This document shows positions 8,096 through 10,759 of a DNA stretch of 64,000 bases, in pieces. Made by a program: the position numbers and the translations under genes. Position 1 is the first letter of the stretch, and each line of letters begins with the position of its first letter. Source of the DNA: the human T2T-CHM13v2.0 reference genome, Homo sapiens; NCBI RefSeq assembly GCF_009914755.1, contig NC_060925.1, one strand, 5' to 3'. The notes under the pieces were generated by a model. That model ran no database searches. It saw nothing but the letters and a program-made list of their open reading frames with translations, and was not told the DNA's origin.

Positions 8096-8664
8096 AATGC
8101 ACCCACCAGAACAAGGATGAAGTGGGGGCAAAATAAAAGCAATGTCATAATTTAAGCCATTATTTCCAAAGTATGTTTGGATAATAAATCATATAAAATG
8201 CTTCTCAATAGTAAGATGTCTAAATATAGAACTACTAAATCAAAATTTCAGTGGGATACCTAGAATTTGTACCTTCACAAGTTCCTAGGTGATTCTTTGC
8301 AGTCAACTCATTGTCAGGCATTTAAAAAATATGGATTTAGGCCACCAAGACACCTACATATGCCCCTATTTGATGTATTCAACCAGGGTCAGTTGGCAAT
8401 GCACAAAGCTATGGACAACCAGGGGGGGTAGCCTATCCTTAGCACCCACTACTCATTCATCATCACCATTTTTATTTGTCTGATTGTTCAAAATAAACGT
8501 ATGTACCCCACAAAAAAATATATTCAAAATAAACACTAATGATCCTCTAACAAACTGGCAGCAAAAACTGTAAAAAATTTAGTTGACTGAACTACCCTCA
8601 GGGAGAAATGCAAACTAATTCCAGGATTGAAAAAGCTATTTGATCCTTAAATGTCTGAGAAAAG

Positions 8665-10666
8665 TACTATGGTCTGGATGTTTGTATCCCCCCTAAATTT
8701 CTACACTGAAACCTAGATTCCAGTGTTATACTATTAAGAAGTGAGGTTTTACAGGAGATGATTAGGTCATAAAGTTGGAGCCCTCATGAATGGGATTAGT
8801 GCCCTTATAAGAACTATGCACTAACCGATTGTGCTACTGGAGCTACAGTTAGTGCCCTTATAAAATAGGTTCAAGGGGGCTCATTTGCCTCTTCCACAAT
8901 GTGAGGATACAGTGAGAAGTCAATAGTCTGCAACCTAGAAAATGGCCTTCACAAGAACCTGGCCATGTTGGCACACTGACATTGGGTTTCCCAGTCTTTA
9001 GAACTGTGAAAACAAATTTTTATTGTTTATAAGCTACAAAGTTTGTGGTATTTTGTTATATCAGCCTGAGTGCACTAAAATAGGAATTGATATCAAGAAA
9101 CAGGGTGTTCCTATAAAATGTGGAAATGGCTTTGAAATTGTGTAATGGGTAGAGGCTGAAAGAGTTTTTAAGTGCTTTCTAGAAGAAGTCTACATTGTTG
9201 TCAATAGACCAAAAGGAGTCACTCTGGTGAGGGTTAGAAGAAAAAGAGAGCTGTAGAGAAAAAGCATCAACCTGCTTCGGGATTACCTACCTGGTCATGA
9301 ACAGAATGTTGATAGAAATATGGATGATAAAGGCCATTCTGATGAAATCTCAGATGGAAATTAGAAATATTACTGGAGACTGGAAAAAAGTGATCCTTGT
9401 TATAAGGAAGCAAAGAATTTGGGTGAATTCAGTTTGTATCCTAGTGTTTTGTAAAGATGGAACTTGTGAGCCATAAAACATGATATTTGGTAGAAGAAAT
9501 TTCTAAGAAAAGTGTTGAAGGTGCCATTCAGCCTCTATCCAATGTTTATGGTAAAATACAATAAGAGAGAAATGATTTAGAGATGGTATTTTTAATCAAA
9601 AGAGAAATGCAACTTAGAAAAATTTGGAAAATTCTTAGCCTATTAATATTGAAGGAAATAAGAAAATGTGCTTAGAAGAGAAGACAAAAGGTGTCCAAGC
9701 AACTGTTTGACAAGGAGATTTGTATGATTCAGAGGAACGCACTTGCTTTTCCTTGGGACAATGGAAGAATGGTTCCAAAGGCTTTTTGGAGATAGTTGGA
9801 GCTAACCCCTCCCATCACAAACCCAGAGTATAAAGATCTTGAGAGCAATTTCAAGGCTTCTCTCCCTGTATTTCAGCTCATCAATCCTCAGCAGTGGGCT
9901 CAGAGTCTTGGGGGCCCAACCCCCACCCCAATGTGTCCAGAAGGTGAAATATTGAGTCAAAAAACATTATTTTTGAGCCTTAAGATTTAATTGTGTTTGC
10001 TGTGTTGGGTTTTGGACTTAGCTGTGACCTGTTACTTCTTTCTTCTTTACAATCTCTCTGTTCCAGAATAGAAATGTCTGTCCTATGCCTGTCTCACTAT
10101 TGTATTTTTGAAGTGCATAATTTGTATGATTTCACAGGCTCACAATGGAGATAAATTTGCCTCAGAATGAATTGTACCTTGAATCTCAACCATAACTGAT
10201 ATAGAAGATATTTAGATGAGTCTGTTGACTTCAGAATTTTGAGTCAACCCTGGACAGAGTTAAGACTTTCGGGTCTAATGAGATAGAATGAACATAATTT
10301 TCATGTGAGAAGGATATAAAATTTGGGCCAAGGTAGATTGTTTCAGTCTGAATATTTCTGTCCCCCCAAACCTCCTATGTTGAAACCTAGTTTTTAATGT
10401 GATTGATAGTATTAGGAGGTGGAGTCTTTTGGGAGGTGATTAGGTCATGATGGTAGAGCCCTTGTGAATGGAATCAGTGACCTTATAAAATAGTCCCAAG
10501 GGAGCTCATTTGACTGTTTCATTACGTAAGGACAACCCTTAGAAGAGCCTGACCCTGCTGGCACCCGACTCTTGGACTTCTCGGTTTCCAGAACTGTAAA
10601 AAATAAATTTCTGTTGTTTATAAGTCATCCAGTCTATGGTATGTAACAGCTTGAACACACAAAGGC
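8665..10666 (+). mobile_element. MLT1A-type MaLR provirus: 5' LTR 8665-9082, internal region 9083-10338, 3' LTR 10339-10666
   Basis: Two similar co-oriented LTRs (both contain gaaacctag...tattaRgaRgtg...gatgattaggtcat-like...ccttataaaatag) flanking an MLT1-int-like segment (aatgtggaaatggctttgaaattgtgtaatgggtagaggctg). Confidence 0.8.
8805..8843 (-). pseudogene. Tailless retropseudogene of the tRNA-Ile(TAT) 5' half
   Basis: Minus strand gctccagtagcacaatcggttagtgcatagttcttataa matches 32/39 nt of tRNA-Ile-TAT 5' sequence GCTCCAGTGGCGCAATCGGTTAGCGCGCGGTACTTATAA, mostly CpG transitions; perfect 15-bp TSD ttagtgcccttataa at 8796-8810 and 8849-8863. Confidence 0.85.
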
Positions 10667-10759
10667 AAATGGTTTCCATATTTTGGTGCTGCTGAAATAA
10701 TGCAGTGGCTATAGCACTTGCGGAGAACATGGGAAGAGAGAATACTTTAATTGTATCAC

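What the first reader, a model, noticed from the sequence alone, without database searches (positions are those of the whole stretch)
8796..8863. Tailless tRNA-Ile(TAT) 5'-half retrocopy with a perfect TSD, and the empty site kept in the sister LTR
Seen: a 15-bp direct repeat ttagtgcccttataa (8796-8810, 8849-8863) brackets 38 bp that are absent from the 3' LTR of the same provirus, which has a single tcagtgaccttataa at 10474-10488. On the minus strand the insert reads ctgta-gctccagtagcacaatcggttagtgcatagttc-ttataa, 32/39 identical to the tRNA-Ile-TAT 5' half, ending just past the anticodon, with no polyA tail. The tRNA's last bases (TTATAA) are the first bases of the TSD. Established: tRNA-Ile-TAT is intron-containing and is cut after position 37 by the TSEN splicing endonuclease; tailless retropseudogenes are attributed to L1-mediated reverse transcription primed by microhomology. 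Inference: the template was a 5'-exon splicing intermediate or a 5' tRNA half, and the extra ctgta may be an unprocessed pre-tRNA leader that identifies the source gene.
Basis: partly seen in the sequence, partly recalled or inferred. Interest (0 to 1): 0.8.

Follow-up and report, generated by a model that had tools for sequence, protein, structure and literature searches.

The report
Known tailless pre-tRNA-Ile retrocopy in LTR
A 45-base copy of the front half of an unprocessed isoleucine tRNA precursor was pasted by the LINE-1 machinery into an old retrotransposon LTR; it is a real but ordinary member of a class described in 2004, and this very copy appears to be listed in a 2015 catalogue.

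Summary
A perfect 15-bp direct repeat (8796-8810 and 8849-8863) brackets 38 bp. That insert is absent from the second LTR (10474-10488) and from 9 of 9 other copies of the LTR family. On the minus strand the insert is a 5-nt leader plus tRNA-Ile-TAT exon 1, 31/38 identical, with 5 of the 7 differences at CpG.

It belongs to a known class, the tailless retropseudogenes of Schmitz 2004 and Noll 2015. Noll's Table S2 (hg19) lists a 40-nt chr1:69416979-69417018 copy assigned to chr6.trna63-IleTAT, almost certainly this locus.

CTGTA matches 4/5 of the leader of the chr6 gene whose intron begins AG, which extends the RNA/target match to TTATAAG.

The idea of a spliced-off 5' exon or tRNA half as template is not supported. 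In 29 sister copies the leader type predicts the first intron base (6/7 versus 0/22, p 1.5e-5), and 17 carry intron bases outside the duplication. The templates were therefore unprocessed pre-tRNAs, primed internally at the anticodon loop/intron start.

Verdict: real, ordinary, already known.

The parts
8796..8810 (.). Target-site duplication, copy next to the 3' end of the retrocopy (tRNA sense runs on the minus strand). This copy contains the DNA primer end used for reverse transcription.
   Evidence: 15/15 identical to 8849-8863. A single copy of the site is present in the second LTR.
8804..8810 (-). Microhomology TTATAAG. It equals pre-tRNA positions 34-40 (anticodon loop TTATA plus the first two intron bases AG of the chr6c gene) and is at the same time part of the target site, so its origin (RNA or target) cannot be assigned.
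   Evidence: alignment of the copy to L020 from -5 to +40 gives 37/45. The empty site in the second LTR already has cttataa.
8811..8843 (-). Positions 1-33 of tRNA-Ile-TAT exon 1 (acceptor arm, D arm, 5' side of the anticodon stem), the unambiguous RNA-derived part.
   Evidence: 7 differences from the genes' exon 1 (over all 38 positions), 5 of them at CpG sites and 6 of them transitions.
8844..8848 (-). 5' leader CTGTA of the primary Pol III transcript, lying between the TSD and tRNA position 1.
   Evidence: 4/5 to the leader CTGTG of gene L020. Sister copies with gtg-type leaders and copy L041 with an identical actgta appear.
8849..8863 (.). Target-site duplication, copy next to the 5' (leader) end of the retrocopy.
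10474..10488 (.). Empty (pre-insertion) site in the second LTR of the same family and orientation.
   Evidence: one copy of the site, 13/15 identical, with no insert.
8668..9080 (+). Host LTR carrying the insertion (approximate ends). The MaLR/MLT1 family name is recalled and was not tested.
   Evidence: 72-79% identical blocks with 10340-10667; many genomic copies of the segment next to the site.
10340..10667 (+). Second LTR (approximate ends), same orientation, about 1.26 kb downstream of the first. It is presumably the 3' LTR of one element; an element-level TSD could not be recognised.

Best explanation
This is a tailless retropseudogene of an unprocessed tRNA-Ile-TAT primary transcript. 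The source was the chr6 gene whose 5' flank ends CTGTG and whose intron begins AGACAG (locus L020; by its order on chr6 and by Noll's assignments it is hg19 chr6.trna63). The transcript still carried its 5' leader and its intron. An L1 ribonucleoprotein nicked the plus strand of an old MLT1-type LTR inside or just after CTTATAA. The exposed 3' end paired with 5-7 nt of the single-stranded anticodon-loop/intron-start sequence UUAUA(AG). Reverse transcription ran from there to the 5' end of the RNA, giving 33 unambiguous tRNA bases plus a 5-nt leader. A staggered second nick 15 bp away produced the TSD. Nothing 3' of the priming point was copied, so there is no intron body, no exon 2 and no A tail. 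The copy has since decayed, mostly at CpG sites, and has no evident function. Shown here: the anatomy, the empty site, the tRNA identity, the leader/intron concordance in the family, and the catalogue entry. Inferred: L1 as the enzyme, internal priming for this particular copy, and the exact nick position.
For: (1) Anatomy and empty site. (2) tRNA identity: one search gave 39 hits against 0 for the control. One search gave 31/38 identity, with 5 of 7 differences at the 10 CpG positions and only 2 at the 28 non-CpG positions. (3) Leader: one search shows 3-5 nt between TSD and position 1 in most copies, falling into classes that end like the flanks of living genes (gga/aga, gggt, gtg). Ours is 4/5 to L020. 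(4) Leader and intron come from one transcript: searches used 29 of the 34 non-gene hits. Five were dropped (L041, L044, L045, L048, L049) because the exon end could not be aligned or the copy ends in the D loop. The base after exon 1 is A, as in L020, in 6 of 7 gtg-class copies and in 0 of 22 others (Fisher p 1.5e-5; 6e-5 without this locus). Among the 12 copies where that base lies inside the TSD the split is 4/4 versus 0/8 (p 0.002; 0.006 without this locus), so target choice depended on intron bases. Seventeen of 29 have intron bases 5' of the TSD; L033, L040 and L042 carry 14-17 intron bases matching the chr2, chr19 and chr6a genes. Two further gtg-class copies (L050, L051) also continue with AGA. 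(5) None of the 34 non-gene hits contains exon 2, whereas 5 of 5 genes do. (6) Literature: the Introduction and Results of Noll et al. 2015 were read. They describe tRNA-derived, 3'-truncated, tail-less, TSD-flanked copies, 'processed or unprocessed', truncated in loops, with a target complementary to the terminal 2-18 nt of the RNA, and they favour internal priming. Their Table S2 (hg19 per Table S8) lists chr1:69416979-69417018 as chr6.trna63-IleTAT. That entry is 40 nt long, equal to positions 1-40 here. At least 20 of my other hits pair with Table S2 rows on the same chromosome with locally consistent offsets.
Against: For this single copy the last 7 bases are shared with the target, so the RNA's real 3' end at the time of priming cannot be read. 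It could lie anywhere from position 33 to beyond 40. The leader match is 4/5, not 5/5, and a random 5-mer would match at least 4/5 with one of five leaders about 8% of the time. The TSD calls are automatic, and three (L022, L034, L038) look misplaced by eye, although none changes the direction of the counts. Two dropped copies with a gta leader (L041, L048) could not be scored; L048 has C at the nominal position. The equivalence of the hg19 entry with this T2T locus rests on chromosome, a -588 kb offset, length and source assignment, not on a liftover. The target is only a loose fit to TT/WAAAAWW. L1 involvement is inferred from the TSD and the class, not shown. Schmitz et al. 2004 could not be read.
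Confidence: 0.85

Rival explanations
1. The template was a TSEN-cleaved 'leader-5'-exon' fragment, a splicing intermediate ending exactly after position 37/38, primed at its very 3' end.
For: The unambiguous RNA part stops before position 38 and the shared bases include the exact exon end. 5' leader-exon tRNA fragments exist, at least in CLP1-mutant cells: passages of the review PMC4052509 citing Hanada 2013 were read. Three of the 12 copies whose TSD covers position 39 match the intron by only one base (L016, L026, L032), so they are compatible with an exon-only template.
Against: The target bases after TTATA (AG) match the intron of the leader-assigned gene, about 1/16 by chance. Family-wide, the intron base inside the TSD follows the leader class (4/4 versus 0/8), and 17 of 29 copies contain intron bases outside the TSD. 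Noll et al. looked for truncated-RNA intermediates of 5S and U2 and found none. These fragments are reported as aberrant products. From general knowledge, not tested here: end-processing normally precedes splicing in vertebrates.
Confidence: 0.05
2. The template was a mature 5' tRNA half, produced by stress-induced (angiogenin-type) cleavage of spliced tRNA-Ile-TAT in the anticodon loop.
For: The copy ends in the anticodon loop.
Against: Five extra bases 5' of position 1 resemble a gene leader, and a mature tRNA has none. Nearly all sister copies carry leaders, and many carry intron bases.
Confidence: 0.02
3. The insertion was not made by L1. It could be a piece of tRNA gene DNA or cDNA captured as filler during double-strand-break repair, or a local duplication of the LTR.
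For: The target is a poor match to the classical TT/AAAA, and no A tail is present.
Against: A clean 15-bp TSD, a full-length 5' end at a transcript leader, and recurrence of the same architecture in some 30 copies and in a published catalogue of 51 Ile-TAT and 2,402 total cases (Noll abstract). The insert is unrelated to LTR sequence.
Confidence: 0.03

Closest known systems
Tailless retropseudogenes (Schmitz, Churakov, Zischler & Brosius 2004, not readable here; Noll et al. 2015, PMC5322556: Introduction, Results, and parts of Tables S2, S4 and S8 read)
   Same: tRNA-derived, with a full-length 5' end and precursor leader. Truncated at the 3' end in a loop or single-stranded region. No oligo(A). 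TSD of 15 bp. The target is complementary to the last 5-7 nt of the copied RNA. The unprocessed (nuclear) precursor served as template. An entry with the same chromosome, length and source gene is in their Table S2.
   Different: Nothing of substance. The only local extra is that the host is one of two LTRs of one element, so the empty site is preserved 1.7 kb away in the same genome.
Classical L1-mobilised retrocopies (Alu, processed pseudogenes)
   Same: Target-primed reverse transcription, staggered nicks, and a TSD of typical length.
   Different: No poly(A) tail. Priming was by internal complementarity rather than on an A tail. The target is AT-rich but not TT/AAAA.
5' leader-exon tRNA fragments (Hanada et al. 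2013, seen only as cited in the review PMC4052509)
   Same: Same nominal composition: leader plus 5' exon of an intron-containing pre-tRNA.
   Different: Those are RNAs reported for pre-tRNA-Tyr in CLP1-defective cells. Here the family evidence says the intron was still attached when the target was chosen.

Membership tests
Tailless retropseudogene (Schmitz 2004 / Noll 2015) | Derived from a small cellular RNA, with a full-length 5' end (precursor leader allowed, up to 20 nt in Noll's screen) | tested here: met
   tRNA-Ile-TAT exon 1 from position 1, preceded by a 5-nt leader-like CTGTA.
Tailless retropseudogene (Schmitz 2004 / Noll 2015) | 3' truncation at a loop or other single-stranded region of the source RNA | tested here: met
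   the end lies between positions 33 and 40, in the anticodon loop/intron start. Exon 2 is absent.
Tailless retropseudogene (Schmitz 2004 / Noll 2015) | No oligo(A) tail | tested here: met
   the tRNA part abuts the TSD directly.
Tailless retropseudogene (Schmitz 2004 / Noll 2015) | Flanking TSD (8-35 nt, at least 70% identity in Noll's script) | tested here: met
   15 nt, 100% identical. The empty site is in the second LTR.
Tailless retropseudogene (Schmitz 2004 / Noll 2015) | Target site complementary to the terminal 2-18 nt of the copied RNA | tested here: met
   TTATA (5 nt) is shared with exon 1, and TTATAAG (7 nt) with the chr6c pre-tRNA.
Tailless retropseudogene (Schmitz 2004 / Noll 2015) | L1-like consensus target TT/WAAAAWW | tested here: inconclusive
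   Sequence: depending on where the nick is placed within the shared bases, the tRNA-sense target reads TT/TTATAAG or TT/ATAAGGG. It is AT-rich and preceded by TT, but only a partial fit.
Tailless retropseudogene (Schmitz 2004 / Noll 2015) | Made by L1 reverse transcriptase/endonuclease | not testable with these tools
   Inferred from the TSD and the class.
Retrocopy of a TSEN 5'-exon intermediate or of a 5' tRNA half | RNA 3' end exactly at the splice or cleavage site, with no dependence on intron bases | tested here: inconclusive
   For this copy the end is hidden in the microhomology. The two bases beyond the exon match the intron of the assigned gene. In the family the criterion is not met (4/4 versus 0/8; 17 of 29 copies have intron bases outside the TSD).
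Retrocopy of a TSEN 5'-exon intermediate or of a 5' tRNA half | Mature 5' end (for a half of a mature tRNA) | tested here: not met
   a 5-nt leader is present.
MLT1A (MaLR) LTR as host, two LTRs of one provirus | Match to the subfamily consensus; a shared element-level TSD | not tested
No repeat library was available. The two LTRs are co-oriented, about 76% identical and 1.26 kb apart. No element TSD was recognisable by eye.

The most novel reading that the evidence does not exclude
A minority of tRNA-Ile-TAT tailless copies, possibly including this one, were copied from TSEN-generated leader-5'-exon fragments rather than from whole pre-tRNAs. These would be the copies that stop at or before position 38 with little or no intron match. 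If so, the genome would hold a fossil record of aberrant germline tRNA-splicing intermediates. A second possibility rests on the shared actgta leader of this copy and L041, which may mark a lost or since-mutated Ile-TAT source allele.
Probability: 0.05. Interest if true: 0.45.

Novelty: already known. Interest (0 to 1): 0.1.

Why it matters
It matters little beyond being a tidy textbook example. The insertion, its perfect TSD and its preserved empty site in the partner LTR can all be seen in 2 kb of one genome. The family comparison made here restates, for tRNA-Ile-TAT, what the Münster group concluded in general: L1 can pick up nuclear, unprocessed Pol III transcripts and prime on internal AU-rich single-stranded stretches. 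The supporting results are that leader type predicts the intron base, none of the 34 non-gene hits (this locus included) reaches exon 2, and most stop 0-5 nt into the intron. The locus can serve as a presence/absence marker for primate phylogeny, which is how the class was first found.

Tried and rejected
ARAGORN on the whole window found no tRNA.

Rfam on 8600-9100 at E<=10 gave no tRNA hit, only two chance matches. Both results are expected for a decayed half-molecule and are not evidence against the tRNA reading.

The automatic extension alignment of copies to the five pre-tRNAs over-extended by chance. It was replaced by the simpler position-39 test.

The MFE fold of the L020 pre-tRNA did not give a cloverleaf (z 0.22, ensemble frequency 0.005). 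It says nothing about accessibility of the priming site.

A BLAST-type search of the genome with the L020 leader, exon 1 and intron found 17 places but not this locus, which is too diverged. It therefore cannot exclude another diverged Ile-TAT copy near chr1:69 Mb, and the identity with the hg19 catalogue entry stays an inference.

Schmitz et al. 2004 is not held under its DOI or its PMC id. Its content is known to me only through Noll et al. and recall.

The reading 'the 38 bp are part of the LTR consensus' is rejected by the second LTR and 9 of 9 other copies.

Dating by divergence was considered. There are 2 changes at 28 non-CpG sites, 5 of 10 CpG positions changed (4 of the 5 CpG dinucleotides hit) and 0 of 15 TSD differences. 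This is too little for more than 'tens of millions of years'.

Per-locus presence/absence data were not found in the parts of Noll's supplement that I searched; Table S4 is a summary.

Full report
**Observation.** The plus strand carries ttagtgcccttataa at 8796-8810 and again at 8849-8863, 15/15 identical, with 38 bp between the copies. The region lies in an LTR-like repeat. A second copy of that repeat sits about 1.7 kb downstream in the same orientation, about 76% identical in alignment A1.
- The second copy has the site once (10474-10488, 13/15 identical).
- It shows a gap of exactly 53 columns where the first copy has the insert plus the second repeat.
- Nine other genomic copies of the family were chosen because they match the 31 bp to the left of the site with at most 2 mismatches. 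All nine continue from cttataa into family sequence; none has the insert.
- A perfect 15-mer repeat within 100 nt is expected about 0.006 times per 64 kb by chance.

So this is a real insertion with a target-site duplication.

**What the insert is.** Read on the minus strand it is CTGTA followed by 33 bases. Together with the TTATA that begins the downstream repeat, these give 31/38 identity to exon 1 of tRNA-Ile-TAT.
- Five of the seven differences fall on the 10 CpG positions of the exon, and six are transitions.
- Only 2 of the 28 non-CpG positions differ.

I did not type a tRNA from memory. I searched the window's own genome with the first 23 bases of the tRNA part, allowing 3 mismatches.
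- There were 39 matches, against 0 for the reversed control.
- Five of them (chr2, three on chr6, chr19) are complete genes with an identical 38-nt exon 1, an intron of about 20 nt directly after TTATA, and exon 2.
- The other 34, including this locus, lack exon 2 (best match at least 14 mismatches of 30).

ARAGORN and Rfam do not detect the fragment. That is expected for a decayed half-molecule.

**The family.** Most of the 34 non-gene hits have the same build: TSD, 3-5 extra bases, tRNA from position 1, an end in the anticodon loop or the first bases of the intron, then the TSD again. The extra bases fall into classes that end like the 5' flanks of the living genes:
- gga/aga (chr19 and chr2)
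- gggt (chr6a)
- gtg (chr6c, locus L020, flank ...ttctgtg)

This locus has ctgta, 4/5 to L020. Another copy, L041, has the same actgta.

Some copies carry long intron pieces that name their source. L040 has 15-17 nt of the chr19 intron, L033 has 14 nt of the chr2 intron, and L042 has 16 nt close to the chr6a intron. In each the leader fits that gene. L033 has cgga where the chr2 gene now has caga, a CpG change.

**Test of the template.** The five introns begin differently (AGACAG in chr6c; TGACAG, TGGCAG, CAGCAG and CAACAG in the others). The base after exon 1 can therefore be compared with the leader class.
- Of the 34 copies I dropped five. L044 has no homology past about 21 nt. L045 and L048 are rearranged. 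L041's exon end cannot be aligned. L049 ends in the D loop.
- In the remaining 29, the base is A in 6 of 7 gtg-class copies and in 0 of 22 others (Fisher p 1.5e-5; 6e-5 without this locus).
- In the 12 copies where that base lies inside the TSD, and so belonged to the target before insertion, the split is 4/4 versus 0/8 (p 0.002; 0.006 without this locus).
- Seventeen of the 29 have intron bases outside the TSD.
- Two further gtg-class copies found later (L050, L051) also continue with AGA.

Caveats:
- The TSD calls are automatic, and three (L022, L034, L038) look misplaced by eye.
- The classes were defined after seeing the data.
- The dropped L048 (gta leader) has C at the nominal position.

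The conclusion is that the RNAs copied still had both leader and intron. They were primary transcripts, and the target was chosen by pairing with the anticodon-loop/intron-start stretch.

**This locus.** The target bases after TTATA are AG, the intron start of the very gene indicated by the leader. The RNA/target match is therefore TTATAAG, 7 nt, and the homology to the L020 pre-tRNA runs from -5 to +40 (37/45).
- Because these bases are shared, the RNA's real end and the exact nick cannot be read.
- Among the allowed nick positions, one gives TTAT/AAAA on the nicked plus strand, one mismatch from the L1 endonuclease consensus as quoted by Noll et al. This is an inference from the sequence.
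- By analogy with its sisters, the copy most likely arose by internal priming on an unspliced, leader-bearing pre-tRNA.
- I put a TSEN-cut leader-5'-exon template at about 5%. Such fragments are known (review PMC4052509 citing Hanada 2013; passages read), but the AG match and the family pattern speak against it.
- A mature 5' tRNA half does not fit because of the leader.

**Comparison with what is known.** Noll et al. 2015 (PMC5322556) was read in part: abstract, Introduction, first part of Results, and passages of Methods.
- They describe 'tailless retropseudogenes', first reported by Schmitz et al. 2004.
- The insertion site is complementary to the terminal 2-18 nt of the RNA, with a consensus target of TT/WAAAAWW.
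- The authors argue for internal priming over truncated-RNA templates.

Their Table S2 covers 'all perfect human tailless retropseudogenes', in hg19 coordinates per Table S8, and holds 51 IleTAT rows.
- In the part I read there are 42 IleTAT rows. By my hand count their lengths are 38-66 nt, with 41 nt in 19 of 42.
- One row is chr1:69416979-69417018, chr6.trna63-IleTAT. It is 40 nt long, the same as positions 1-40 here, and is assigned to the gene that, by its order along chr6 (trna29 < trna55 < trna63 versus 26.9, 27.5 and 28.4 Mb) and by shared assignments (L016, L034, L035, L041), corresponds to L020.
- At least 20 of my other hits have a Table S2 partner on the same chromosome with locally consistent offsets. 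Examples are two chr3 copies both at -3.5 kb and four chr10 copies at -0.87 to -0.90 Mb.
- The offset for this locus is -588 kb.
- I could not run a liftover, so the identity is very probable but not proven.

**Age and function.** The TSD copies are still identical, the tRNA part has lost most CpGs, and the host LTR pair is about 24% diverged. The insertion is therefore much younger than the LTR but old, probably tens of millions of years. Orthologous loci could not be examined here. Nothing suggests a function: a tRNA half lacks the B box, and no gene is annotated in the window.

**Verdict.** The mechanism is partly right (L1-type, microhomology-primed, leader from a pre-tRNA) and partly not (no support for a splicing intermediate or tRNA half). 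The thing is an ordinary, already described and apparently already catalogued element.

Noticed in passing
window 8843-8849 (minus strand) and L041 (G000:C10:113,719,122 region): This copy and L041 both read actgta directly 5' of tRNA position 1, whereas the living chr6c gene has ctgtg. Noll's Table S2 assigns both copies to chr6.trna63. Possible explanations are an older allele of the gene flank, a lost source gene, or two parallel G>A changes.
   Followed up: partly
L033 (G000:C6:42,374,178 region) versus gene L015 (chr2): L033 carries 14 nt of the chr2 gene's intron but has the leader cgga, where the gene now has caga. The gene flank seems to have lost a CpG after that retroposition, so 'gga' leaders cannot separate chr2 from chr19 sources.
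   Followed up: partly
L042 (G000:C11:16,667,062 region) versus gene L018 (chr6a): The copy has the leader gggt and the intron body of L018, but its intron starts cag where the gene now has tgg. This may reflect change or gene conversion among the chr6 Ile-TAT introns since the copy was made.
   Followed up: no
all 34 non-gene hits: None contains exon 2. No full-length or spliced Ile-TAT retrocopy was found in this sample: every copy that could be placed stops in the D loop (L049), the anticodon loop or the intron.
   Followed up: yes
L021 (G000:C7:44,585,743), L024 (C12:119,594,754), L013 (C4:58,272,233), L040 (C10:74,392,714): These retrocopies keep most or all CpGs of exon 1 (0-2 changes in 38 nt), so they look much younger than the window's copy.
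   Followed up: no
window about 8917-8951 versus 10533: The second LTR lacks about 35 bp that the first LTR has (alignment A1, columns 278-312). This is an unrelated indel between the two LTRs.
   Followed up: no
window 8811-8814: The first four bases of the insert on the plus strand (gaac) resemble the family continuation after cttataa in other LTR copies (gaag...). This is judged a coincidence, since both the second LTR and the downstream repeat continue with aatag.
   Followed up: partly
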